Sequence record: MZ189262.1
Direction: 5' to 3' (one strand)
Source of the DNA: Escherichia phage W143
Length of the DNA: 64,000 bases
Under the pieces are notes generated by a model that was given only the letters and a program-made list of their open reading frames with translations, ran no database searches and was not told the DNA's origin. Both the position numbers and the translations under genes were made by a program. This document shows, in pieces, positions 1,851 to 22,108 of the stretch (the stretch's first letter is position 1; each line of letters starts with the position of its first letter).

Positions 1851-1878
1851 AACATATACTCTCAACAAGGAAAGCGCA

Positions 1879-3162
1879 ATGGCTAAAATCAACGAACTTC
1901 TGCGCGAATCAACCACAACGAATAGCAACTCAATCGGTCGCCCAAATCTCGTTGCTTTGACTCGCGCTACCACTAAATTAATATATTCTGACATTGTAGC
2001 AACGCAAAGAACTAATCAACCTGTTGCTGCTTTTTATGGTATCAAATACCTTAACCCAGATAATGAATTTACATTTAAAACTGGTGCTACTTACGCTGGC
2101 GAAGCTGGATATGTAGACCGAGAACAAATCACAGAATTAACAGAAGAGTCTAAATTAACTCTCAATAAAGGCGATTTATTCAAATATAATAATATCGTTT
2201 ATAAAGTATTAGAAGATACACCATTTGCTACCATTGAAGAAAGCGATTTAGAACTAGCTCTTCAGATTGCAATTGTTCTTTTAAAGGTTCGTCTATTTTC
2301 TGATGCAGCGTCAACGAGCAAATTTGAAAGCTCTGATAGCGAAATTGCTGATGCTAGATTCCAGATTAATAAATGGCAAACCGCAGTTAAATCTCGTAAA
2401 CTTAAAACAGGTCTCACGGTTGAATTAGCACAAGATTTAGAAGCAAATGGATTCGATGCTCCTAATTTCTTGGAAGATTTGCTTGCAACTGAAATGGCGG
2501 ATGAAATCAATAAAGATATTCTACAGTCTTTGATTACAGTGTCAAAACGCTATAAAGTTACAGGAATTACTGATACCGGATTCATTGATTTGAGTTATGC
2601 ATCTGCACCTGAAGCCGGTCGTTCATTATACCGAATGGTATGTGAAATGGTTTCGCATATCCAAAAAGAATCAACTTATACAGCAACGTTCTGTGTTGCT
2701 TCAGCTCGTGCCGCTGCGATTCTTGCTGCATCAGGTTGGTTAAAACATAAACCAGAAGATGATAAATATCTTTCACAAAATGCCTATGGGTTCTTAGCTA
2801 ATGGTTTACCGCTTTATTGTGATACTAACAGCCCATTAGATTATGTAATCGTTGGCGTGGTAGAAAATATTGGCGAAAAAGAAATTGTCGGATCAATTTT
2901 CTATGCTCCGTATACAGAAGGTCTTGACTTAGATGACCCTGAACATGTAGGTGCATTTAAAGTTGTAGTTGATCCAGAAAGTTTGCAGCCATCTATCGGT
3001 TTATTGGTTAGATATGCTTTATCTGCAAATCCTTACACTGTAGCAAAAGACGAAAAAGAAGCAAGAATAATTGATGGTGGAGACATGGATAAAATGGCGG
3101 GTCGTTCAGATTTGTCTGTTTTATTAGGTGTTAAGCTACCAAAAATTATCGTTGATGAATAA
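1879..3162 (+). CDS. 24: head vertex protein gp24
   Basis: 427-aa ORF MAKINELLRESTTT...; recognised as T4 gp24 (gp23 paralog); late promoter upstream. Confidence 0.95.
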   Translation: MAKINELLRESTTTNSNSIGRPNLVALTRATTKLIYSDIVATQRTNQPVAAFYGIKYLNPDNEFTFKTGATYAGEAGYVDREQITELTEESKLTLNKGDLFKYNNIVYKVLEDTPFATIEESDLELALQIAIVLLKVRLFSDAASTSKFESSDSEIADARFQINKWQTAVKSRKLKTGLTVELAQDLEANGFDAPNFLEDLLATEMADEINKDILQSLITVSKRYKVTGITDTGFIDLSYASAPEAGRSLYRMVCEMVSHIQKESTYTATFCVASARAAAILAASGWLKHKPEDDKYLSQNAYGFLANGLPLYCDTNSPLDYVIVGVVENIGEKEIVGSIFYAPYTEGLDLDDPEHVGAFKVVVDPESLQPSIGLLVRYALSANPYTVAKDEKEARIIDGGDMDKMAGRSDLSVLLGVKLPKIIVDE

Positions 3163-3165
3163 AAC

Positions 3166-3190
3166 AAAGGGACCTTTTGGTCCCTTTTTA
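3166..3190. terminator. bidirectional stem-loop terminator between gene 24 and rnlB
   Basis: AGGGACC-TTTT-GGTCCCT stem-loop flanked by A-run upstream and T-run downstream; convergent genes on both sides. Confidence 0.75.
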
Positions 3191-3191
3191 T

Positions 3192-4196
3192 TTAACTTAC
3201 CAATTCAATCCAAGCCGGACGAAGTACATCTTGTACCATTTTAACTAATTCCTTTTTAATCAAAGAAGGATTATCCGCTTGAGTTAAAGTAATACCTTCA
3301 CGAGAAGTTTCTTCCAAAATATCTTGAACAGTTAGTCCCATCACCTTTCCAAAATCCTTCGGACTAATTTCGCCAATTTTAGAAATAACGTTATTTACTC
3401 GGTTCAGTGTAACGTAGCAAGCTAAAATTCCCAGCAATTTATTATCAGCTTCTGACAGCTCAACTTTAGCTTTAATAGGCTTATCAGACTTTTTCTTTTC
3501 ACTAAATTTAGAGCTCTTGCATTTAATAGCTACACGATTGCCATTAGGCATCCAAGAAGGATAACAAGGTTTCAATACATATCCTTCAGCAGTAAATACT
3601 TCGCCTTTTGCTTCAGCATTCCAGACGCATTTATTTGCATCAACTAATCCAGCATGGTCTACTGTAAAATTATAATCCTGGACGACAGAATCTAAATCAT
3701 TTGGCAATTTAATAAGTTCTTCAAATTTACCACGACCCAAAAGTGGAGCCATTTTAAATTTAAATGTATTACAGAATGATTCCATCATATAATCATCGAC
3801 ATAAGTCACATCACCACTTTCGGTAGTAACAATAATGTCAAATACATAAAAATCTTTATCGCCATAATCGACATTCTTCTGAATGCCAGGTCCAGCGAAT
3901 TCGCCGAAGACTTGATAAGATACAACTGCTGAAGTTTCCATAATATCTTGTACTGCTTTAATGGAATCAGCGTAATTCTTTAGAATAATTTCATACCCAA
4001 AGAAATCTTCAGCAGGAAGAATTGGTCCAGTACGTTTAGCACAAGTCGCTTTATCGCGTTCAATAATCAGTGAGAAATTTGTACCATGAATCTTTTCACG
4101 AGCTACCCATTCGCCGCCAGTCAATCCTAAACTATAAAGTTTTTCAATGAATTTAGAATTATAATGATTTTCAAGACTGCTATACTTTTTAAACAT
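3192..4196 (-). CDS. rnlB: RNA ligase 2 (Rnl2)
   Basis: 334 aa, [19 protein letters not shown]..., nucleotidyltransferase lysine motif KIHG; matches T4 Rnl2. Confidence 0.95.
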
Positions 4197-4205
4197 AATT
4201 AATCC

Positions 4206-4484
4206 TCAAAATGTAATTTCTAACCAATCACCATCACGCTGATCACTATTGACTTTAAAACTAAATCCTTCTTTTCTCAGCCAATCACCAATTTCTTCAG
4301 TAATCAATTTATCGCGAGCAGTGCAATAATAACTAAAATATGTTTTACCTTGTTCAGCTGCTTTATTAGCAAGTTCCGAAAAATCTTTAATAAAACACTC
4401 TAGTTTAAACTGTTTACTTTTAAGTGCTTTTTCGCGTAATTGATTAGCAAAAGATTCATTTTCATAAAGATCATACTGTTCCAT
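4206..4484 (-). CDS. 24.2: hypothetical protein (T4 24.2 position)
   Basis: 92-aa ORF in syntenic position between rnlB and hoc; tightly packed with neighbours. Confidence 0.7.
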   Translation of the reverse strand: MEQYDLYENESFANQLREKALKSKQFKLECFIKDFSELANKAAEQGKTYFSYYCTARDKLITEEIGDWLRKEGFSFKVNSDQRDGDWLEITF

Positions 4485-4686
4485 TTTTCACCTTCTTATT
4501 AATATGTCTTTTTCTATAGACAACTTTTTCTCGAGTCTCAAATTTATTCTTAGCAGTCATAGCTCGAGCCCATAATACAGCCACTTCTTTCGCCTGTAAG
4601 TTCAATTCACGAGCAATTTCAATGAATGACTTTCCAGACTCATGGAGTGTAAACACCACAACCTCAGTTCTCATAATCAATCTCAT
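4471..4686 (-). CDS. 24.3: hypothetical protein (T4 24.3 position), possible HTH
   Basis: 71-aa ORF; segment SFIEIARELNLQAKEVAVLWARAM resembles a helix-turn-helix. Confidence 0.65.
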   Translation of the reverse strand: MRLIMRTEVVVFTLHESGKSFIEIARELNLQAKEVAVLWARAMTAKNKFETREKVVYRKRHINKKVKNGTV

Positions 4687-4740
4687 GTTATCGAGTTAGT
4701 GCCATTATATACATCGTTTTCTGATTGTGTTTTGTGTGCT

Positions 4741-4769
4741 TTCAAAATGAAGAAAGGGGCCGAAGCCCC
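4741..4769 (-). terminator. stem-loop terminator downstream of hoc
   Basis: GGGGC-CGAA-GCCCC hairpin (4756-4769) followed on minus strand by TTTCTTCATTTTGAA. Confidence 0.7.
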
Positions 4770-4774
4770 TTAGA

Positions 4775-5905
4775 TTATGGATAGGTATAGATGATACCAG
4801 TTTCTAAAGCAGTTTTATGAATGATGTATCCATTACGCGATTCTTGAACATCAACTTCTGGATAGTCTTTCATCATCTTCTGAAGAGTGTAACGATGCAA
4901 GTAGTACTTACTATCTGGGTCGTCAGTTTTCCAATCTTTACCTTCTTCAGTCATTTTTTGGATTTCATCCATAACCCACCAACCGCACCAGATATAAGCT
5001 GAAGTACGATGTGGAAGAGGATGAACATAAGGTAGTTCACCTTCTGGTTCCGGAGCAGCTTTATCAGTTACCTGAACTTGACCTGTTGTTTTAACTGTTT
5101 TGCTATCATAATCAGCGGCGGTAACAGTTGCAGTAACTTCAATGGTTTGACTTCCAATAGATGATGTATCAACGGTGTATACATTAGTTGACCCTTCTAC
5201 AGGAGAAGAATCTTTCTTCCATGAATACGTAATTTGTGCTTCTTCCGGAGCATCCGTAACGTTAGCAGTAAATGTAGCCGAAGCATCTTGCTGAACATTA
5301 ATAGAAGGAGGAGTCAATGTAACCTGCGGGTTCATTGTCTTCTTATTAACTGTCAATGATACTTCATTGGAAGTAACTTCCTTTGCATCATAATCTGTCG
5401 CTGTTACTTGGGCTACGCATTTAATTCTTTTTACTCCACTTGTAGTTGGAGTATAGCTAAATGTAGAGTTAGTTTCTCCGCCAACCTGTGAATCATCTAC
5501 ATACCACTGATACGTAGCAGACGCTCCAGCTGGTTGAGAAGCTAAGGCAACAGTAAATTGAACCGGGGTTCCAATTACTCCAGCTGAAGGACTATCGGGA
5601 GTTACAGCTAAGGTAGTCGTTTGTGTCTTATTTTGAACTGTGATAGTTGTTGTCGCTTCAGCCGTTTCCGGGCCTCCTTCAGAAAGTGTATTTGTTGCAA
5701 CTACCTTAATAGTCTTTTGACCAGCAGGTCCTTTTAATACATAATCAAAAGTTGCTGCTGATCCTTCTTGGGGAGCATTATCTACGCTCCAAGCATAGGT
5801 AATAGTTCCACCTCCAGTTTCACCACTGGGTGTAGCAGTAAACTGCTTGGTTTCATCAATAACCCCTGTTGGTGTTTTAGGAGTTATATCAACTGTAAAA
5901 GCCAT
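4775..5905 (-). CDS. hoc: highly immunogenic outer capsid protein Hoc
   Basis: 376 aa, Thr/Val-rich with repeated Ig-like segments (YAWSVD..., YQWYVDD..., YSWKKD...); matches T4 Hoc in length and position. Confidence 0.9.
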   Translation of the reverse strand: MAFTVDITPKTPTGVIDETKQFTATPSGETGGGTITYAWSVDNAPQEGSAATFDYVLKGPAGQKTIKVVATNTLSEGGPETAEATTTITVQNKTQTTTLAVTPDSPSAGVIGTPVQFTVALASQPAGASATYQWYVDDSQVGGETNSTFSYTPTTSGVKRIKCVAQVTATDYDAKEVTSNEVSLTVNKKTMNPQVTLTPPSINVQQDASATFTANVTDAPEEAQITYSWKKDSSPVEGSTNVYTVDTSSIGSQTIEVTATVTAADYDSKTVKTTGQVQVTDKAAPEPEGELPYVHPLPHRTSAYIWCGWWVMDEIQKMTEEGKDWKTDDPDSKYYLHRYTLQKMMKDYPEVDVQESRNGYIIHKTALETGIIYTYP

Positions 5906-5914
5906 AAGTTATCC

Positions 5915-6595
5915 TTATTTTAATGTTACGAAAGAAGAATTGCGTGTTTCACGAATTAGAACTGATCCGTCGCGATTAATGTAATAAATTAAGCTAAATA
6001 AAGTTTGGTGTGCCGACGCATGTTCAAAACTAGTTGGGTGAGATTTCCAATCCGGAGTTTCAGCAATCCACTGATAAATCCACCAAGGAACAGTACAGAA
6101 TCCTGGATTTTTTCCAATCAGCTGAAGATTCGGACTAAAGTTTTCCGGAAGAGTAAATACAGACGGCTTTTCAGATTCAATAATCTCAGCTACAGCCTGT
6201 TCGAATTTTTCTTCAACAAAAGGAGTATCTTCAATCAAAACATCGGTATTTTCAGGAATTTTATCCGTTTCGACTACTTCAATTTTAATATCAGATTTAA
6301 CCGGAGAATCAATCAGAAGTGCTGCTTCTGGATTGACTTCTTCATCGTCATATTTTAATCCCTCTGCAGCATCAGCAGCATTGATTAAGTCTTTAATAGA
6401 TAACCCATCAGTCTCTGGCATAGGTTCACTAGCGAGCTTCTGGAGGGCTTCTTCAATATCAACAACGATATTATCAAAAGATTTATTCTTTTTGACCTTT
6501 ATACCAAACTGTTCAGCATATTCAGCTAATTTAGCTTTAGCTTCTTTATTATCATCAAGAGCCTTCAGCTCTGCAATATAATCTTTATCTATCAT
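5915..6595 (-). CDS. inh: acidic protein at T4 inh (hoc.1) position, putative prohead-protease inhibitor
   Basis: 226-aa acidic ORF immediately upstream of hoc; assignment by synteny and recalled size. Confidence 0.7.
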   Translation of the reverse strand: MIDKDYIAELKALDDNKEAKAKLAEYAEQFGIKVKKNKSFDNIVVDIEEALQKLASEPMPETDGLSIKDLINAADAAEGLKYDDEEVNPEAALLIDSPVKSDIKIEVVETDKIPENTDVLIEDTPFVEEKFEQAVAEIIESEKPSVFTLPENFSPNLQLIGKNPGFCTVPWWIYQWIAETPDWKSHPTSFEHASAHQTLFSLIYYINRDGSVLIRETRNSSFVTLK

Positions 6596-6608
6596 AATAT
6601 TTCCTCAG

Positions 6609-6616
6609 TATAAATA
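6609..6616 (+). promoter_or_regulatory. late promoter TATAAATA for uvsW
   Basis: Exact TATAAATA 30 nt upstream of uvsW ATG 6646. Confidence 0.75.
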
Positions 6617-6645
6617 TAGATATATTTATTACATGGTATTTAGAC

Positions 6646-8157
6646 ATGACTGACATTAAAGTACATTTTTATGATTTTAGTCACGTGAGAATTGATTGTG
6701 AAGAAAGTACATTTCATGAACTCCGTGATTTCTTTAGCTTTGAAGCTGATGGGTATCGTTTTAATCCGAAGTACAAATATGGCCACTGGGATGGACGAAT
6801 CCGTCTTTTAGATTATAATCGCCTTCTTCCGTTTGGTTTAGTCGGGCAAATTAAAAAGTTCTGCGATAACTTTGGCTATAAAGCTTGGATTGACCCGCAA
6901 ATTAACGAAAAAGAAGAATTATCAAGAAAAGATTTTGATGAATGGCTTTCTAAGTTAGAAATCTATTCAGGAAATAAAAGAATTGAACCGCACTGGTATC
7001 AAAAAGATGCAGTGTTCGAAGGATTAGTTAATCGTCGTAGAATTCTTAATCTTCCAACATCCGCAGGTAAATCTTTAATTCAAGCTTTGCTTGCACGTTA
7101 TTATTTGGAAAATTATGAAGGTAAAATTCTTATCATTGTTCCAACAACTGCTTTAACAACTCAGATGGCTGATGACTTTGTTGATTATCGTTTATTCAGT
7201 CATGCAATGATAAAGAAAATTGGCGGCGGAGCATCAAAAGATGATAAATATAAAAATGATGCACCGGTAATTGTTGGTACATGGCAAACTGTAGTAAAAC
7301 AACCAAAAGAATGGTTCTCACAGTTTGGAATGATGATGAATGATGAATGCCATCTTGCTACAGGAAAAAGTATTTCATCTATCATATCAGGTTTAAATAA
7401 CTGCATGTTTAAATTTGGTCTATCGGGTTCATTACGTGATGGCAAAGCTAATATCATGCAGTATGTTGGAATGTTTGGTGAAATATTTAAGCCGGTAACG
7501 ACTTCTAAATTAATGGAAGATGGACAAGTAACTGAGTTAAAAATTAATAGTATTTTTCTTCGCTATCCCGATGAGTTCACTACTAAATTAAAGGGAAAAA
7601 CTTACCAAGAAGAAATAAAAATTATTACTGGGCTCAGTAAAAGAAATAAATGGATCGCTAAATTAGCTATTAAACTTGCGCAAAAAGATGAAAACGCTTT
7701 TGTCATGTTTAAGCATGTATCACATGGTAAAGCTATTTTCGATTTAATTAAAAATGAATACGATAAAGTTTATTACGTATCAGGGGAAGTTGATACCGAA
7801 ACACGCAACGTAATGAAAACCCTAGCTGAAAACGGTAAAGGAATAATTATAGTAGCTAGTTATGGTGTATTTTCTACCGGTATTTCAGTTAAAAATCTGC
7901 ATCACGTTGTTTTAGCGCACGGTGTTAAATCTAAAATTATTGTATTGCAAACAATAGGTCGCGTATTACGTAAGCATGGTTCTAAAACAATCGCAACGGT
8001 CTGGGACCTCATAGATGACGCGGGCGTAGTTTCTAAATCAAAAACATCTTCTAAAAAATACTCGCATTTAAACTATCTTTTAAAACATGGACTTGATCGT
8101 ATTCAGCGTTATGCTGATGAGAAGTTTAATTATGTGATGAAAGAGGTTAAACTTTGA
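6646..8157 (+). CDS. uvsW: UvsW DNA helicase (SF2)
   Basis: 503 aa; Walker A PTSAGKS, DExH box NDECH; matches T4 UvsW. Confidence 0.95.
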   Translation: MTDIKVHFYDFSHVRIDCEESTFHELRDFFSFEADGYRFNPKYKYGHWDGRIRLLDYNRLLPFGLVGQIKKFCDNFGYKAWIDPQINEKEELSRKDFDEWLSKLEIYSGNKRIEPHWYQKDAVFEGLVNRRRILNLPTSAGKSLIQALLARYYLENYEGKILIIVPTTALTTQMADDFVDYRLFSHAMIKKIGGGASKDDKYKNDAPVIVGTWQTVVKQPKEWFSQFGMMMNDECHLATGKSISSIISGLNNCMFKFGLSGSLRDGKANIMQYVGMFGEIFKPVTTSKLMEDGQVTELKINSIFLRYPDEFTTKLKGKTYQEEIKIITGLSKRNKWIAKLAIKLAQKDENAFVMFKHVSHGKAIFDLIKNEYDKVYYVSGEVDTETRNVMKTLAENGKGIIIVASYGVFSTGISVKNLHHVVLAHGVKSKIIVLQTIGRVLRKHGSKTIATVWDLIDDAGVVSKSKTSSKKYSHLNYLLKHGLDRIQRYADEKFNYVMKEVKL

Positions 8158-17372: not shown

Positions 17373-17375
17373 CAA

Positions 17376-17407
17376 TGGGGACCTTTCGGTCCCCATATTT
17401 TTATTTA
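17376..17407. terminator. bidirectional stem-loop terminator after gene 54
   Basis: TGGGGACC-TTTC-GGTCCCCA followed by TATTTTTATTT; convergent minus-strand ORF ends at 17401. Confidence 0.8.
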
Positions 17408-17691
17408 CGGAACGAAATAAAAGCAGCAACTGAAGCAACTAAACTGTCTTCAATATAAACTTCAATTTTTACTGGAGCTTCTGACTCAAATTTACCTGTT
17501 ACTACACCTTGGAAAATACTTTCAGTCTGCTCTGGCTTTGAAAAATTTTCAGAAGGAAAAATTCCGAACTTTTTATCTGTTCCAAAAATTTTGATAAATT
17601 CATCATAAACTGCTTCATTAAAAGCATTATCAGCAGGAATAACGCCTTCAACTACAAGTTCTTGACCTAAAAAGCGTAAAGAAGATTTCAT
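17401..17691 (-). CDS. alt.-3: hypothetical protein, 96 aa (T4 alt.-3 position)
   Basis: ORF MKSSLRFLGQELVVEG...; own early promoter and GAGGA SD; symbol by position only. Confidence 0.65.
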   Translation of the reverse strand: MKSSLRFLGQELVVEGVIPADNAFNEAVYDEFIKIFGTDKKFGIFPSENFSKPEQTESIFQGVVTGKFESEAPVKIEVYIEDSLVASVAAFISFRK

Positions 17692-17722: not shown

Positions 17723-17752
17723 ACTATAACACAACACGAGGGACTTGTAAAC
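17723..17752 (-). promoter_or_regulatory. early promoter GTTTAC-N18-TATAGT for the 96-aa ORF
   Basis: -35 GTTTAC (plus 17747-17752, overlapping the stop codon of the upstream alt paralog) and -10 TATAGT (plus 17723-17728); part of a 54-bp block repeated at 32815-32868. Confidence 0.7.
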
Positions 17753-19809
17753 TACATTTTGAACTTTTTAGACATTCCGTTGATGTTAACCAAAGAAGCC
17801 AAGATTTGAGAAACTTCGTTTTCCTCTTCTTTTGATTCTTCTACAAGGAATTGATTAAACCCAGTCATTGGACGAACTTCACCAGTTTCCATTAGATGGT
17901 CGCCATCATATACCGATTCTTCTAATTGTTCAGAAGGAGGAACGATTGTGCCTTCGATTAGATACTTGTTATAAGCAGTTTCTTTCATCATGTACGTACT
18001 CACTTTATTAATCTTCAGCAAAATTCCACGTGGTAAAATAACTTCAGCTTCTGATGGAAATCCTGATAAATGACCTGGAACGATAACTTTGATTCGCTCA
18101 GCTCCTTTAATTACCATACCCACGCTAGTTTCAGCATCTTCATTCGCATAAGCAGAGTGACTGCCCATATGCATTAAATCTTCTGCATCAACTGAACCTT
18201 CTCCTTCACCAGAAAATACTGCGCCGGAATCATCTAGAGCCATATAGTTTTTACCATACTCACCGAAGATATTTGGTTTAAGCGATGTGGATACGAAGTT
18301 CTTGAAGTAGAACATTTTATTTTCAATATTATGACGTAAAGTTTTAAAGGTAACTTCTTGCCCACGGTAAAGTGTAGTTCCTGGAGGAAGAACTGATCCT
18401 TTGGCAAAGGCAGAATCCATTGTCTCGATGTGTTTAATAGCTCGTTCCATATATTCTTCACGAGTAGAATCTGGTTTACCCAAAAGGAACGAGTTCATTT
18501 CAACATATGAATCTGCACAATAATCTTCAATTACATCGGACTCAGCCTGAGTTAATCCTTTTGGGGGTACTTCAGTACTTGCATATTCATACGCTTGAGA
18601 AGCAGACTCATTAATCAATTTATAAATGCCATTCATGACAAATTGAATAATAGCTACCTTTTCATCTGGCGTGGCTTTAGAACCTTTAACTAAATCATTG
18701 ACAATTTTCTTAATAACATCAAAGCTATTAGAAATATTAATGTCAGCAAGATCGCTTAAAATTTTATCGGTTTTATAATCAAAGAATTCTTTATTCTTTA
18801 AATATTCTTGAGAACCTTGATATGTTATATCGTTCTGCAATCTGATAGACGGATCACGTAAACGTGCATGGGCCAATGCAATATGATTTCGGAAGCTTTC
18901 TAGTTCATAATCGTTAGATTTAAAACGAGAAGCACTTCTCATACCACCGATAGCTCCTTTGCTGAAGTTTGAACCAATCTGAATAACGCCAGAGTTCATT
19001 GGTCCTTCTGCTTTATATACCGGAACTTTAGATTCAAACTCTTGATATTTCTTAGCAGCGAAGCTATCGCCCTGAAGTGAAGCATCGACAGTAGAGTATT
19101 GAGCTTGTGCTGCTAATCGACGACTAATTTTAGTTTTCTGAATAACAGCTTGATCCGTACGCTTATCATTTTCTAAAGCAATAGAAGCAGCAACAGCAAC
19201 AGCTTTAGGAACAGCATTACCTGTTTTAACGTCTACATAAACATCACCAACCTTTGATTCAACTTTTGTGAATAACTCAGTTGAAATAGGAGGTACACCT
19301 GGAATGTCTTCTAAATTGGCATTTTTACGGTAAACCATAATATATGCGTACTTTTTATCGTAATCCCAGATTTCCTTTAAAAGAACATATCGACCTGCTC
19401 CTTTAGTACGTACTAAACGGTCAGCGATAACTTGCATTTGACGAGCTGCACCGTTTGTTTTACTCTTTAGTACGCGGAATAAGCATGCATCAATTTTATA
19501 CTGTTTCATTGTCTGAAGAGCGGTATCAAAAACCGCATTAATGACACCAATTGGATTTCCACCTAAGTTTTTAAGTTTAACTAATGATAGTTTCTCGTTG
19601 ACACCTATCATTACGATATGCATCATTTTATCGCCTGGCTTAACGTTTTTGTTTGTATCACCGCCAGAGGTGTATGTACAAAATCTAAATCCAGGAAGCA
19701 CGCTTTCTTCACCGGCTTGAATAGCAAAAATTTGAGGTATTTTATGCTTAGGATTTAAGTTAACAACCGGCGCCGAAGCGCCGTCAAATAATTCTGTAAT
19801 AAGTTCCAT
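17752..19809 (-). CDS. Alt-like ADP-ribosyltransferase, second full-length paralog
   Basis: 685 aa; N-terminus MELITELFD... shared with Alt; conserved core (IDACLFRVLKSKT..., GRYVLLKEIWDYDKKYAYI); ART catalytic signature R (TLYRGQ), S-T-S (FVSTSL), E-x-E (EAEVILPRG); central region diverged. Confidence 0.85.
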   Translation of the reverse strand: MELITELFDGASAPVVNLNPKHKIPQIFAIQAGEESVLPGFRFCTYTSGGDTNKNVKPGDKMMHIVMIGVNEKLSLVKLKNLGGNPIGVINAVFDTALQTMKQYKIDACLFRVLKSKTNGAARQMQVIADRLVRTKGAGRYVLLKEIWDYDKKYAYIMVYRKNANLEDIPGVPPISTELFTKVESKVGDVYVDVKTGNAVPKAVAVAASIALENDKRTDQAVIQKTKISRRLAAQAQYSTVDASLQGDSFAAKKYQEFESKVPVYKAEGPMNSGVIQIGSNFSKGAIGGMRSASRFKSNDYELESFRNHIALAHARLRDPSIRLQNDITYQGSQEYLKNKEFFDYKTDKILSDLADINISNSFDVIKKIVNDLVKGSKATPDEKVAIIQFVMNGIYKLINESASQAYEYASTEVPPKGLTQAESDVIEDYCADSYVEMNSFLLGKPDSTREEYMERAIKHIETMDSAFAKGSVLPPGTTLYRGQEVTFKTLRHNIENKMFYFKNFVSTSLKPNIFGEYGKNYMALDDSGAVFSGEGEGSVDAEDLMHMGSHSAYANEDAETSVGMVIKGAERIKVIVPGHLSGFPSEAEVILPRGILLKINKVSTYMMKETAYNKYLIEGTIVPPSEQLEESVYDGDHLMETGEVRPMTGFNQFLVEESKEEENEVSQILASLVNINGMSKKFKM

Positions 19810-19812
19810 GAT

Positions 19813-21870
19813 TTATCCTTGAACGAACTTGTAAGGCATGTTTGTAATATCTATGCAAGACGCAATAATTCCGAGAGATGATTCTGCTTTCTGTTTAACA
19901 TTTGATGAAACAAATGATGCAAAGTCAACTCTGTCTTCTATTTCAATATCATCTGTCATTGCAACCAATTCACCAGTTTCCATTAGACGATCACCGTCAT
20001 AAATTACCGATTCGGTGAGTTCTTCCGTAGTCATAACTTCAGCTTGAATAAGCTTGTTGTTAGTTTTAACTGTTCCATCATTGTAAGATGCATCGGTTAT
20101 TTTATTAATTTTGACCATTAGTCCACGTGGCAAAATGACTTCCATTTCATTTGAAGGCGCTAAACTTCCACCGGGTAAAACAACATTGACTTTATCAGCT
20201 CCAGTAATAACCCATCCAATTCCAACTAAATTATCGCTAGAATTAACAAGCCCTTCATCATTTTTATCGATAGAAATGCTTAGACGCTTTTCATCTGGTA
20301 AAACACCCACAGCTGAATCAGTCATCCAAGTACCAAAAATGTTTGGATATAATGATGTTGATACAAAATTTCTAAAATAAAAAACTCGATTTTTTACCAA
20401 TGCTTCATATATTGAAGGTAACATTCGCTGTGAACGATATAAAGTAATACCTTTTGGCAATCGATCACCATTTTTAAAGGCTGAATCTAAATTATCGATG
20501 GCTTGTTCTATTTCGGGTGCTGTCAAAATACTTGTACGCTCATCTGGATTATATAATCCCAAAAGAGCATTATTCATGTCTACATATCCTGAACCCACAT
20601 ATTCACGAATTCCGCGTTTTTGAGCCGGTGTGTATTTAGATGAATCTTTATTTTCGACTATAGAATGCAATGACCATCCAACGGTAAGAGCATATCCACG
20701 TAATTCTCTTCGAATAATCTTTGTTTTTATTGCATTCCAAGAATTTTGCACTAACTCATTTGCAGCATCTTGATTTAAATGCGAATGCTTGTTAATATTT
20801 CTTTCTAACCAAGCACTTTTATATTTTTCTAAAGTATCATCGACTATAGAAGCAATAGTTTCTAAAGTTTTTATTGAAGTAATAGATTCTTTTCGTAATC
20901 TTTCTAAAGCTTTATTTTTTATTTCTGCATTAACATCAGATTCTTTATCTTCAGGAATTATAGAAGCTTCTCTGAATGCCATTCCAGCTGTAACACTATT
21001 AAGAGCATTTTCTAATGCAAATCCTGAAGTAGAAATAACGGTTAATTCGTTAGCATCAGAAATTAAAGGCGCGTCGGCGGGTTTATTTAATTCTGCTGCT
21101 GAAGCCTCAAATTTTTGAAACATTGGTGTTTCAAATCTAGAAGATTCCAATGACTGACTTTGTGCAATTGCTCTACGTGAAATTTTAACTTTAACTATTA
21201 CAGCCTGGTCAGAACGTTTATCGTTTTCTTGCGCAATAGATGCTGCAATTGCCTCATTTTTAGTTACTTGAACCCCAGTATCTTTATTGATATAAACATC
21301 GCCGACTTTCGATTCAACTTTAGTAAAGAGCTCGGTACTAATTTCCGGAACTCCTGGAATGTCTTCTAGTGATACATTTTTGCGATGTATAAGAATATAT
21401 GCATACTTTTTATCATAATCCCAGAGTTCCTTAAGAAGGACGTATCTGCCGCCTGAACGACTACGGATAAGTCTATCAGCAATAACTTGAATTTGACGAG
21501 CTTGACCAGCAGTTTTAGACTTAAGAATACGAAGCATGCAGGCATCAATTTTATACTGACGCATCGTCTGCATTGCAACAGTAAAAACTGAATTGATATA
21601 ATTAATTGGGCTTGGACCGAGACCTTTCAATTTAGCAATTGAACCTTTAGCAGTTAATGTAAAAGGAACAATATGCATCATTTTATCGCCCATTTTTAAA
21701 TCGCGATTAGTATCACCTCCAGATGTATAGGTACATAAACGAAAGCCTGGTTGTTCAATTGCGTCATCAACATGAACTGAAAAAATTTGTGGTATTTTCT
21801 TCTTTGGATTTAAGTTTGTAATCGGAAGAGTAGTATCTTCGTCAAATAATTCTGTAATAAGTTCCATCAT
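19813..21870 (-). CDS. alt: Alt ADP-ribosyltransferase (head-packaged, injected)
   Basis: 685 aa; matches T4 Alt; R (TLYRSQ), FVSTSL, EMEVILPRG motifs; late promoter upstream. Confidence 0.92.
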   Translation of the reverse strand: MMELITELFDEDTTLPITNLNPKKKIPQIFSVHVDDAIEQPGFRLCTYTSGGDTNRDLKMGDKMMHIVPFTLTAKGSIAKLKGLGPSPINYINSVFTVAMQTMRQYKIDACMLRILKSKTAGQARQIQVIADRLIRSRSGGRYVLLKELWDYDKKYAYILIHRKNVSLEDIPGVPEISTELFTKVESKVGDVYINKDTGVQVTKNEAIAASIAQENDKRSDQAVIVKVKISRRAIAQSQSLESSRFETPMFQKFEASAAELNKPADAPLISDANELTVISTSGFALENALNSVTAGMAFREASIIPEDKESDVNAEIKNKALERLRKESITSIKTLETIASIVDDTLEKYKSAWLERNINKHSHLNQDAANELVQNSWNAIKTKIIRRELRGYALTVGWSLHSIVENKDSSKYTPAQKRGIREYVGSGYVDMNNALLGLYNPDERTSILTAPEIEQAIDNLDSAFKNGDRLPKGITLYRSQRMLPSIYEALVKNRVFYFRNFVSTSLYPNIFGTWMTDSAVGVLPDEKRLSISIDKNDEGLVNSSDNLVGIGWVITGADKVNVVLPGGSLAPSNEMEVILPRGLMVKINKITDASYNDGTVKTNNKLIQAEVMTTEELTESVIYDGDRLMETGELVAMTDDIEIEDRVDFASFVSSNVKQKAESSLGIIASCIDITNMPYKFVQG

Positions 21871-21890: not shown

Positions 21891-21898
21891 TATTTATA
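21891..21898 (-). promoter_or_regulatory. late promoter TATAAATA for alt
   Basis: Minus-strand TATAAATA (plus TATTTATA 21891-21898) 21 nt upstream of alt ATG. Confidence 0.75.
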
Positions 21899-21903
21899 AA
21901 ATT

Positions 21904-21921
21904 AAAGGCCCGAAGGCCTTT
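21904..21921 (-). terminator. stem-loop (AAAGGCC-CGAA-GGCCTTT) between the 62-aa ORF and alt
   Basis: 7-bp GC stem with GNRA-type loop followed by a T-rich tract on the minus strand. Confidence 0.5.
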
Positions 21922-22108
21922 AATAATCTATTGGTAAGAGAGTACGGTATATTTCAAACTTTGGACCTTTTTCATAGGCATCAAATGTTTCTGTGAATTT
22001 ATTATAAGCATATGCATCTATAAATTCAATCATAATTTGTGATACAGAAGTAGAAACATCTCCACCTTCTTTTTGAGCAACGACAATTGTTTCTAAGTAA
22101 GCTTTCAT
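21920..22108 (-). CDS. hypothetical protein, 62 aa
   Basis: ORF MKAYLETIVVAQKEGG... whose start overlaps the ligase stop (ATGA coupling). Confidence 0.5.
   Translation of the reverse strand: MKAYLETIVVAQKEGGDVSTSVSQIMIEFIDAYAYNKFTETFDAYEKGPKFEIYRTLLPIDY

What the first reader, a model, noticed from the sequence alone, without database searches (positions are those of the whole stretch)
17752..21870. Two tandem full-length Alt-type ADP-ribosyltransferase genes
Two adjacent 685-aa ORFs, 3 nt apart and probably co-transcribed from the late promoter at 21891-21898, both carry the R / S-T-S / E-x-E catalytic signature (LYRGQ or LYRSQ; FVSTSL; EAEVILPRG or EMEVILPRG). They share the N-terminus MELITELFD and a conserved core, but the central ~200 residues and C-terminal tails diverge. 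The downstream copy (19813-21870) looks like canonical Alt. From memory, T4 has only short alt.-1/alt.-2 ORFs at the upstream position, whereas here the paralog is intact. The shared N-terminus resembles a capsid-targeting sequence, so both enzymes may be packaged and injected, with the diverged regions suggesting different host targets.
Basis: partly seen in the sequence, partly recalled or inferred. Interest (0 to 1): 0.6.

Follow-up and report, generated by a model that had tools for sequence, protein, structure and literature searches.

The report
Two tandem Alt ADP-ribosyltransferase genes
This T4-like phage carries the known injected enzyme Alt plus an intact, strongly conserved second copy; about four in five sequenced relatives (including T2 and T6) have both and databases already annotate them, while T4 keeps only a deleted remnant, so the finding is real but not new.

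Summary
Two minus-strand ORFs lie 3 nt apart: AltA (19813-21867/21870) is 96% identical to T4 Alt, and AltB (17752-19809) is 41% identical to it. Both are full-length PHROG 802 / PF03496 proteins, and both keep the invariant R, S-T-S and E-x-E residues. AltB is under strong purifying selection (dN/dS 0.03-0.055).

T4's alt.-1 and alt.-2 are a decayed AltB. They result from a 1-nt frameshift plus a 1,691-bp deletion between 9-nt direct repeats. About 400 phage records carry intact AltB, including T2, T6 and RB3, and 91 carry the T4-type deletion.

Both gp21 protease sites mapped in T4 Alt (ITE-6, LTE-619) are conserved in AltB (ITE-6, LEE-631). One late promoter precedes the pair, and no terminator lies between them. 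AltB is therefore most likely a second, late-made, head-packaged, injected arginine ADP-ribosyltransferase. Different targets are plausible but untested.

The pair is already annotated ("Alt-like ... x2") and has been remarked on in papers from 2006 and 2026, so it is not novel.

A by-product of this work: N-terminal domains group by phage genus, whereas the ART parts form old lineages shared across genera, and AltA carries a swapped middle+ART cassette. Interest is modest.

The parts
21904..21921 (-). Hairpin AAAGGCC-TTCG-GGCCTTT followed by a T-rich tail, directly after the alt.1 stop codon. It probably ends the upstream early/middle transcript.
   Evidence: Sequence read, coordinates verified. 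Invariant in T4, RB3 and Dhakavirus UGJNEcP4. Not reported by the simple terminator scan.
21891..21898 (-). T4-type late promoter TATAAATA, 21 nt upstream of the first ATG of AltA.
   Evidence: Same position in T4 and RB3. It is the only exact TATAAATA on the minus strand between 17700 and 22000. alt is a late gene in T4 (PMC9697503).
19813..21870 (-). AltA, the canonical Alt ADP-ribosyltransferase. Start is at 21870 or, as annotated in T4, at 21867 (684 aa). Predicted mature protein is residues 7-619 (68.3 kDa). Catalytic residues are R478 (20434-20436), STS 503-505 (20353-20361) and ExE 574-576 (20140-20148). gp21 sites are ITE-6 and LTE-619.
   Evidence: 96% identical to T4 Alt. PF03496 E 2e-34. 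PHROG 802 E 5e-263. Motifs and coordinates.
19816..19820 (-). Shine-Dalgarno AAGGA for AltB, lying inside the last codons of AltA. The AltA stop TAA (19813-19815) is followed by ATC and then the AltB ATG.
17752..19809 (-). AltB, the full-length Alt paralog (685 aa; called 'alt.-2' or 'alt.-1' in the RB3, T6 and T2 records).
   Evidence: 41% identical to AltA. PF03496 E 3e-20. PHROG 802 E 3e-255. dN/dS 0.03-0.055. AF2 model pLDDT 81.7.
19792..19809 (-). AltB residues 1-6, MELITE: predicted N-terminal propeptide ending in the gp21 site I-T-E. The first 28 nt are identical to AltA.
   Evidence: The T4 Alt ITE-6 site is reported in PMC5694885.
19096..19791 (-). AltB N-terminal domain (residues 7-238). 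It is alpha/beta and 67% identical to the AltA N-domain. Inferred to be a head-core targeting or delivery module.
18565..19095 (-). AltB all-helical middle region (residues 239-415). It cannot be aligned with AltA (11-15% identity) but is 46% identical to Dhakavirus copy 3.
17917..18564 (-). AltB ART catalytic domain (residues 416-631). Catalytic residues are R482 (18364-18366), STS 507-509 (18283-18291) and EAE 587-589 (18043-18051). It ends at L629-E630-E631|S632, the predicted C-terminal gp21 site.
17755..17916 (-). AltB residues 632-685: predicted acidic C-terminal propeptide (54 aa, pI 4.6) containing the family motif YDGDxLMETGE.
   Evidence: C-terminal processing of T4 Alt is reported in PMC5694885.
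17723..17751 (-). Early-type sigma-70 promoter (TTTACA, 17-nt spacer, TG-TATAGT) directly after the AltB stop codon, in front of alt.-3.
17401..17691 (-). alt.-3 homolog (96 aa, DUF5498), the last gene before the terminator.
17375..17396 (.). Bidirectional hairpin terminator between gene 54 (+ strand) and alt.-3 (- strand). It is the likely 3' end of the late alt transcript.

Best explanation
The window comes from a Tequatrovirus, a T4-like phage that is 95-97% identical to its nearest sequenced relatives. It carries the usual, ancestral form of the alt locus: ligase - alt.1 - AltA - AltB - alt.-3 - gene 54.

AltA is canonical Alt. AltB is an old paralog of the Alt/VIP2 (R-S-E) family that is still functional.

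Shown:
- AltB is intact.
- AltB has every catalytic residue that is invariant across the family.
- Its C-terminal domain folds like C3/Vis/VIP2 enzymes.
- It evolves under strong purifying selection.
- It is present in about 80% of sequenced relatives.
- T4's alt.-1/alt.-2 are what is left of AltB after a frameshift and a 1.69-kb deletion.

Inferred:
- Both genes are transcribed late from the single TATAAATA promoter and translated from one mRNA.
- Both precursors (about 76 kDa) enter the prohead core through the shared N-terminal module.
- Both are trimmed by the gp21 prohead protease after I-T-E(6) and after L-x-E (619 in AltA, 631 in AltB), giving proteins of about 68-69 kDa.
- Both are injected with the DNA and mono-ADP-ribosylate arginines of host proteins, using NAD+, in the first moments of infection.

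Most speculative: the unalignable helical middle region, and the diverged loops between the STS and ExE motifs, give AltB a target set different from that of Alt (RNA polymerase alpha R265, EF-Tu, MazF and others). That would explain why both copies are kept.
For: Structure of the locus and genes
- ORFs, spacing and motifs.
- Family membership: PF03496 and full-length PHROG 802.
- R482, S507, E587 and E589 are invariant in 54 diverse family members. The equivalent of E589 in T4 Alt (E577A) is required for activity (PMC11404850).
- The AF2 model has pLDDT 81.7 and pTM 0.79. Foldseek's top hits are Vis, Certhrax, C3, CDTa and VIP2.

Selection and distribution
- dN/dS is 0.03-0.055 at dS 0.09-0.22 among five phages.
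- About 400 records carry AltB at >=90% identity, including T2, T6 and RB3.
- T4 alt.-1/alt.-2 are 95-98% identical to AltB residues 1-116. The deletion junction lies in a 9-nt repeat.

Expression and processing
- The late promoter is conserved, and there is no terminator or second late promoter inside the pair. alt is late in T4.
- gp21 sites ITE-6 and LTE-619 were mapped in T4 Alt, giving a 68.2-kDa mature protein (PMC5694885). My calculation reproduces 68.2 kDa.
- Both sites are conserved in AltB and in 45-52 of 54 family members.

N-terminal domain as a separable module
- It occurs with non-ART C-termini.
- A similar fold sits at the N-terminus of large proteins carrying other effector domains in other myoviruses.
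Against: - No direct evidence was found that AltB is in virions, is cleaved, is injected or is enzymatically active. The literature searches turned up no proteomic or biochemical study of it.
- T4 and 90 other records do without AltB, and alt itself is non-essential, so any benefit is conditional.
- The L/I-x-E motif is short. Its conservation could reflect something other than proteolysis.
- Different targets are inferred only from divergence.
- The TATAAATA motif is not enriched in the window as a whole (11 found, 8.7 expected). Its weight comes from its position and its conservation.
Confidence: 0.7

Rival explanations
1. AltB is a redundant duplicate on its way to being lost. It is still open by chance or by weak selection and adds nothing to what Alt does.
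For: It has been lost in the T4 lineage and in 91 of 499 records that carry the locus. T4 grows well without it. alt itself is non-essential (PMC9026906).
Against: dN/dS of 0.03-0.055 with 38-86 synonymous against 6-20 non-synonymous differences per pair. It is 97-99% conserved in about 400 records. All catalytic residues are kept. An orthologous lineage exists in Dhakavirus (46-64% identity in the non-N-terminal parts, 100% bootstrap), so the gene has been kept since before the two genera split. All 91 losses share one junction, so they trace to a single deletion event rather than recurrent decay.
Confidence: 0.1
2. AltB is an active ADP-ribosyltransferase made late, but it is not packaged. 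It acts inside the producing cell late in infection, or it is released at lysis.
For: Packaging has never been shown for AltB. ModA and ModB show that T4-type ARTs can act without being packaged (PMC5512222).
Against: AltB shares with Alt the N-terminal module (67% identity), the identical MELITE propeptide and the C-terminal L-x-E|S site used by the prohead protease. It sits in the same late operon. The unpackaged ModA and ModB are short early proteins, per general knowledge of T4.
Confidence: 0.12
3. AltB mainly serves as a structural or scaffolding component of the head core, and its enzymatic activity is secondary or lost.
For: Alt is listed as a prohead core protein at about 40 copies (PMC9958956; PMC11404850).
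Against: R482, S507, E587 and E589 and the PRG motif are invariant. The ART domain is modelled with high confidence. The head assembles without Alt and, in T4, without AltB.
Confidence: 0.05

Closest known systems
T4 Alt (gpAlt, NAD+--arginine ADP-ribosyltransferase, NP_049811)
   Same: AltA is this protein (96% identity). AltB shares the whole architecture: MELITE propeptide, N-domain, helical middle, R-S-E ART domain, L-x-E|S site and acidic C-terminal tail. It also shares the late operon and PHROG 802.
   Different: AltB is only 41% identical overall. Its middle region is unalignable (11-15%) and its ART domain is 35% identical, with different insertions between the STS and ExE motifs. Its targets, activity and virion presence have not been studied.
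T4 alt.-1 / alt.-2 (NP_049810, NP_049809)
   Same: They occupy the same locus and are 95% and 98% identical to AltB residues 1-56 and 62-116.
   Different: They are fragments: a 1-nt deletion in an A-run plus a 1,691-bp deletion between the repeats CTAAA(G/A)AGT. The GenBank note reads them as a duplication of the first part of alt. The data fit a deleted full-length paralog better.
The annotated second 'Alt-like RNA polymerase ADP-ribosyltransferase' of T2, T6, RB3, pSs-1, PYps10T and others
   Same: It is the same gene at 97-99% amino-acid identity, in the same position. It is noted in print for phage 6phi13 (PMC13600099).
   Different: Nothing of substance. The window is one more instance.
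Tandem Alt arrays of other Straboviridae (Dhakavirus UGJNEcP4 with three copies; 44RR-like Biquartavirus; Krischvirus)
   Same: They are tandem Alt-family genes between the ligase and gene 54. Dhakavirus copy 3 is the AltB lineage and copy 1 is the AltA lineage. Alt duplications were noted in 2006 (PMC1524935).
   Different: Copy number and completeness vary: some copies are ART-only ORFs or split genes. The N-domains group by genus, not by lineage.
T4 ModA / ModB
   Same: They are R-S-E arginine ARTs of the same clade (PMC5512222).
   Different: They are short, early-expressed and not packaged (general knowledge of T4). They lack the Alt N-domain and the protease sites.
C3 exoenzyme / Vis / VIP2 / CDTa bacterial ART toxins
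   Same: The AltB C-terminal domain has the same fold, with Foldseek E 3e-7 to 5e-5, and falls in the same Pfam family.
   Different: Sequence identity is only 14-20%. They have other delivery mechanisms, and C3 has QxE and modifies asparagine.
Capsid-targeting sequences of T4 internal proteins IPII/IPIII
   Same: Both are short N-terminal propeptides removed by gp21 after Glu.
   Different: The sequences differ. [quoted passage not shown] For Alt proteins the targeting determinant has not been mapped and may be the 230-residue N-domain and/or the C-terminal propeptide.

Membership tests
Alt/VIP2-type R-S-E ADP-ribosyltransferases (Pfam PF03496) | Significant match to the family profile | tested here: met
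   AltA E 2.2e-34 (119 bits) and AltB E 3.2e-20 (72.7 bits), against a cutoff of 23.4 bits.
Alt/VIP2-type R-S-E ADP-ribosyltransferases (Pfam PF03496) | Catalytic Arg, Ser-Thr-Ser and Glu-x-Glu in register | tested here: met
   AltB R482, S507-T-S509 and E587-x-E589; AltA R478, S503-T-S505 and E574-x-E576. R, the first S and both E are invariant in 54 family members.
Alt/VIP2-type R-S-E ADP-ribosyltransferases (Pfam PF03496) | ART fold | tested here: met
   AF2 model of AltB has pLDDT 81.7. Foldseek probability is 1.00 to Vis, Certhrax, C3, CDTa and VIP2, with TM 0.56-0.68 normalised to the single-domain targets. This rests on a predicted structure, not a solved one.
Alt/VIP2-type R-S-E ADP-ribosyltransferases (Pfam PF03496) | NAD+-dependent arginine ADP-ribosylation activity | not testable with these tools
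   Needs purified protein. In T4 Alt the second Glu of ExE is essential (PMC11404850).
Phage Alt proteins (PHROG 802; packaged T4-type Alt) | Full-length architecture: N-domain + middle + ART + C-tail | tested here: met
   PHROG 802 matched over residues 1-685 of AltB (E 2.8e-255) and 1-683 of AltA.
Phage Alt proteins (PHROG 802; packaged T4-type Alt) | Locus between DNA ligase/alt.1 and alt.-3/gene 54, downstream of a late promoter | tested here: met
Phage Alt proteins (PHROG 802; packaged T4-type Alt) | gp21 prohead-protease sites at both ends (ITE-6 and LTE-619 in T4 Alt) | tested here: met
   The motifs are present in AltB (ITE-6, LEE-631|S) and conserved in 45-52 of 54 relatives. Actual cleavage was not tested.
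Phage Alt proteins (PHROG 802; packaged T4-type Alt) | Presence in the mature head and injection with the DNA | not testable with these tools
   No proteomic report for AltB was found.
Phage Alt proteins (PHROG 802; packaged T4-type Alt) | ADP-ribosylation of RNA polymerase alpha Arg265 | not testable with these tools
   Known for T4 Alt (PMC8120803). Unknown for AltB.
Pseudogene / decaying duplicate | Relaxed selection, frameshifts or loss of catalytic residues | tested here: not met
   The window's AltB is intact, with dN/dS 0.03-0.055. The decayed state is seen in T4 instead.

The most novel reading that the evidence does not exclude
Most T-even phages inject not one but two Alt-type ADP-ribosyltransferases. 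The second one, AltB, is missing from T4 because of a single 1.69-kb deletion, so decades of T4 work have overlooked it. AltB has its own host targets, possibly a defence system or a different part of the gene-expression machinery.

More broadly, the Alt locus behaves like a polymorphic-effector array. A genus-matched N-terminal head-delivery module is joined to old, exchangeable middle+ART cassettes, and a similar N-terminal fold carries other effector domains in unrelated myoviruses.
Probability: 0.4. Interest if true: 0.55.

Novelty: already known. Interest (0 to 1): 0.3.

Why it matters
T4 is the reference for how phages take over E. coli, and reviews speak of 'three' T4 ADP-ribosyltransferases. 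About 80% of sequenced Tequatroviruses, including T2 and T6, carry a fourth one. It is strongly conserved and probably injected, and no function has been tested for it.

If AltB has its own targets, it is an unstudied early host-takeover or anti-defence factor in phages that are widely used for therapy and biocontrol. The tools to test this already exist: virion mass spectrometry, ADP-ribosyl proteomics and CRISPR editing of T-even phages.

The gene pair itself is ordinary and already annotated.

Tried and rejected
- PDB by sequence: only a marginal Vis hit (E 0.78), so no solved Alt structure was found.
- NCBIfam: no model matches either protein.
- Pfam on the middle region: only a chance-level CesA hit (E 0.049).
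- Recent gene conversion between the AltA and AltB N-domains: rejected for this genus because synonymous sites are saturated (dS 1.57). Only the first 28 nt are identical.
- Recurrent independent loss of AltB: not supported. SYGD1 and the other deletion carriers share the T4 junction.
- Enrichment of TATAAATA as statistical evidence: not significant in the window. I relied on its position and conservation instead.
- Literature searches for a functional or proteomic study of the second Alt found none. Koch et al. 1995 is not held in the library.
- The precomputed Pfam family PF26846 that is listed on all homologs is absent from the local Pfam copy, so its definition could not be read.


Full report
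OBSERVATION

The ORF list shows two minus-strand ORFs of 685 aa, at 19813-21870 and 17752-19809. They are separated by 3 nt, ATC. I call the first-transcribed gene AltA and the second AltB.

AltA begins with two ATGs. T4 annotates the second as the start, giving MELITELFDE, so the protein is 684 aa from 21867.

BLASTP of the two proteins gives 41% identity over the full length, E 8e-158. Both match Pfam PF03496, the ADP-ribosyltransferase exoenzyme family (E 2e-34 and 3e-20). Both also match PHROG 802, 'Alt-like RNA polymerase ADP-ribosyltransferase', from end to end.

- AltA: R478, S503-T-S505 and E574-x-E576.
- AltB: R482, S507-T-S509 and E587-x-E589.

In an alignment of 54 diverse family members, the Arg, the first Ser and both Glu are invariant. 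The second Glu corresponds to the T4 Alt residue whose E577A change abolishes activity (PMC11404850). That paper numbers from the first ATG.

WHAT THE TWO GENES ARE

AltA is canonical Alt, 96% identical to T4 Alt.

The T4 record has only alt.-1 (61 aa) and alt.-2 (67 aa) between alt and alt.-3. These fragments are 95% and 98% identical to AltB residues 1-56 and 62-116, but only about 60% identical to AltA. DNA alignment shows that T4 differs from the window in two ways:
- a 1-nt deletion in an A-run, which splits the reading frame;
- a 1,691-bp deletion whose ends lie in a 9-nt direct repeat, CTAAA(G/A)AGT.

So T4 carries the wreck of AltB. The GenBank note reads these fragments as 'an old duplication of the first part of alt'. 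They are better read as a deleted full-length paralog.

Tequatrovirus SYGD1 has the same deletion without the frameshift.

HOW COMMON IT IS

- Megablast of the locus finds 505 phage records, and 380 of them cover at least 80% of it at 90-99% identity.
- tblastn with AltB finds about 400 records with an ortholog at >=90% identity.
- A query spanning the T4 deletion junction is matched contiguously in 91 of 499 records. These include T4 laboratory strains, RB55, RB59, HY03, SG1 and ACG-C40.
- T2, T6 and RB3 all have intact AltB. It is annotated there as 'hypothetical protein, alt.-1', as 'apparent insertion in alt.-2; also similar to alt', or as 'Alt-like RNA polymerase ADP-ribosyltransferase'.

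These counts include duplicate RefSeq/GenBank records and repeated laboratory strains, so they are approximate. Even so, the two-gene state is clearly the majority, and T4 is the exception.

The arrangement has been noted in print. Alt paralogs in T4-like genomes were described in 2006 (PMC1524935). Two paralogous Alt-like proteins of 43% identity in a Tequatrovirus were described in 2026, with the same speculation about diverged targets (PMC13600099). The finding is therefore not new.

IS ALTB FUNCTIONAL?

Among five phages (the window, pSs-1, RB3, slur04 and PYps10T), AltB has dN/dS of 0.03-0.055 at dS 0.09-0.22. That is strong purifying selection.

An AlphaFold2 model built from the 54-sequence alignment has mean pLDDT 81.7 and pTM 0.79. 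Its C-terminal domain matches Vis, Certhrax, C3, CDTa and VIP2. The low-confidence segments are 518-554, the loops between STS and ExE, and the region just after residue 631.

EXPRESSION

Reading along the minus strand:
- Directly after the alt.1 stop codon there is a hairpin (21921-21904).
- Next comes TATAAATA (21898-21891), then a GAGAGG ribosome-binding site and the ATG ATG start.
- This block is conserved in T4 and RB3, and the hairpin also in a Dhakavirus.
- There is no other TATAAATA on this strand within the pair, and no terminator-like site between the genes.
- AltB has its own AAGGA ribosome-binding site inside the end of AltA.
- alt is a late gene in T4 at both the RNA and the protein level (PMC9697503).
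- After AltB comes an early-type promoter for alt.-3 (17751-17723), and then a bidirectional terminator (17375-17396).

Co-transcription of AltA and AltB from the late promoter is thus well supported by inference, but it has not been shown directly.

PACKAGING

A sharper test is available.

Mass spectrometry of T4 heads showed that Alt is cut by the gp21 prohead protease after ITE-6 and after LTE-619, giving a 68.2-kDa protein (PMC5694885; also PMC9026906). My calculation for T4 residues 7-619 gives 68.2 kDa, which confirms the mapping.

- AltA keeps both sites.
- AltB has ITE-6 and L629-E-E631|S632. Its predicted mature protein is residues 7-631 (69.2 kDa), with an acidic 54-residue C-terminal propeptide.
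- Across the 54-member alignment, the N-terminal site has L/I in 48 sequences and Glu in 52. The C-terminal site has L/I in 45, Glu in 52 and Ser in 39.

This supports the view that AltB goes through the same prohead pathway as Alt, which is present at about 40 copies per head (PMC9958956). I found no virion proteomics that names AltB, so packaging remains inferred.

DOMAIN ANATOMY AND EVOLUTION (GOING BEYOND THE FINDING)

Identity between AltA and AltB, in AltB numbering, is:
- 67-68% in residues 1-238;
- 11-15% in 239-415, an all-helical region;
- 35% in the ART domain;
- 40% in the tail.

A search of 1.84 billion representative proteins finds only 115 relatives. Many of them match in two separate stretches, the N-domain and the ART domain, with the middle unaligned. 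The variable middle is therefore a property of the whole family.

Dhakavirus UGJNEcP4 has three tandem Alt genes at the same locus. Biquartavirus and Krischvirus have extra ART-only or split copies.

Neighbour-joining trees with 200 bootstraps disagree by domain:
- N-domains group by genus at 100% support: Tequatrovirus A with B; Dhakavirus 1, 2 and 3 together; Biquartavirus.
- ART domains group AltB with Dhakavirus copy 3 at 100%, and AltA with Dhakavirus copy 1 at 100%.

The effector parts are thus old lineages that predate the split of the genera. The N-domain follows the phage instead. This could arise in three ways:
- past gene conversion;
- co-evolution with the phage's own head core;
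- exchange of effector cassettes.

Recent conversion is excluded in this genus, because synonymous sites between the two N-domains are saturated (dS 1.57).

Within Tequatrovirus, AltA itself comes in two forms. The T4 type has 682-685 aa and the RB3/T2/T6 type has 697 aa. The two forms are 93-99% identical in DNA over codons 1-240 and 616-684, but only 47-72% identical over codons 250-610. That is a swapped middle+ART cassette. AltB, by contrast, is monomorphic.

All four combinations of AltA type with AltB present or deleted exist.

The N-domain on its own behaves as a separable module:
- It models well (pLDDT 88.6).
- It occurs fused to non-ART C-termini.
- It resembles the N-terminal parts of large proteins in other myoviruses, at Foldseek E 1e-9 to 1e-4 and TM about 0.4-0.55. 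Some of those proteins carry zeta-toxin, deaminase or ParB/Srx domains.

I take this as suggestive evidence, not proof, that the N-domain is a reusable head-delivery module.

MECHANISM, WITH STATUS OF EACH STEP

- Shown: the genes are intact, catalytically complete and constrained, and the T4 remnant derives from AltB.
- Inferred with good support: late co-expression, entry into the prohead, and trimming by gp21 at both ends.
- Inferred from family knowledge: injection with the DNA, and arginine mono-ADP-ribosylation using NAD+ (the ExE motif).
- Speculative: a distinct target set. T4 Alt modifies at least 27 host proteins, including RNA polymerase alpha R265, EF-Tu and MazF (PMC8120803). What AltB modifies is unknown.

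RIVAL EXPLANATIONS

- A decaying redundant duplicate is contradicted by the selection data and by the cross-genus orthology.
- A late enzyme that is not packaged cannot be excluded, but it does not explain the conserved propeptide sites.
- A purely structural role is contradicted by the invariant catalytic residues.

VERDICT

However, it is the common, already annotated state of the alt locus in T-even phages.

The open question is experimental: what does the second Alt do? The by-products of this check may be useful to specialists. They are the origin of T4 alt.-1/alt.-2, the conserved double protease sites, the domain-wise tree conflict and the AltA cassette swap.

Noticed in passing
window 17752-19809 compared with L001 (T4) 5066-5451: T4 alt.-1/alt.-2 derive from AltB by a 1-nt deletion in an A-run and a 1,691-bp deletion between the 9-nt direct repeats CTAAA(G/A)AGT. 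The T4 GenBank note instead calls them a duplication of the first part of alt. The same junction occurs in 91 phage records, and in SYGD1 without the frameshift (a 128-aa ORF).
   Followed up: yes
window 19813-21867 compared with L004 (RB3) 904-2997; also T2 (L011) and T6 (L010): AltA is dimorphic within Tequatrovirus. Codons 1-240 and 616-684 are 93-100% identical in DNA, but codons 250-610 (middle + ART) are only 47-72% identical. This looks like a recombinational cassette swap. AltB is monomorphic (97-99% amino-acid identity).
   Followed up: partly
window AltA/AltB compared with L003 (Dhakavirus UGJNEcP4) 1861-8124, L007, L008: The trees conflict by domain. N-terminal domains cluster by phage genus at 100% bootstrap. 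ART domains cluster AltB with Dhakavirus copy 3 and AltA with copy 1 at 100% bootstrap. Dhakavirus has three tandem Alt genes, and Biquartavirus and Krischvirus have extra ART-only or split copies.
   Followed up: partly
AltB residues 7-238 (window 19096-19791): The Alt N-terminal domain occurs in proteins with non-ART C-termini (P0223 of 1142 aa, P0200, P0217). Its predicted fold resembles the N-termini of large uncharacterised proteins of Ackermannviridae-like, Vibrio and Agrobacterium myoviruses, some of which carry zeta-toxin, deaminase or ParB/Srx domains. It may be a general head-delivery module.
   Followed up: partly
window 17914-17925 (AltB LEES) and 20008-20019 (AltA LTES); motif YDGDxLMETGE just downstream: The C-terminal gp21 site L-x-E|S and the following YDGDxL(M/L)ETGE motif are nearly invariant across the Alt family. 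The C-terminal propeptide is acidic (pI 4.1-4.6), while the mature protein is neutral to basic. The role of this propeptide is unknown.
   Followed up: partly
window 17723-17751 (-) and 17375-17396: An early-type promoter (TTTACA, 17-nt spacer, TG-TATAGT) sits right after the AltB stop codon, in front of alt.-3 (DUF5498). A bidirectional hairpin terminator separates alt.-3 from the convergent gene 54. alt.-3 may therefore be expressed both early, from its own promoter, and late, by read-through.
   Followed up: no
window 21867-21870: AltA has a tandem ATG ATG start, conserved in T4 and RB3. The published residue numbers (E577A, and a '7-residue' propeptide in one review) fit the first ATG, while the T4 annotation and 'ITE-6' fit the second. 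Which start is used is unclear.
   Followed up: no
window 19782-19809 and 21840-21867: The first 28 nt of AltA and AltB are identical (ATGGAACTTATTACAGAATTATTTGACG), although synonymous sites elsewhere in the N-domain are saturated. This suggests either a nucleotide-level constraint on the start and propeptide region or a small conversion tract.
   Followed up: no
all Alt homologs: A precomputed Pfam family, PF26846.1, is listed on every full-length Alt homolog. It is absent from the local Pfam copy, so its definition could not be checked. It probably covers the Alt N-terminal or middle region.
   Followed up: no
window 21920-22108 (-): The small ORF alt.1 (62 aa), between the ligase gene and AltA, matches Pfam PF24647 'Phage_blade' (E 7.5e-29). 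The T4 record annotates it only as a conserved hypothetical protein.
   Followed up: no
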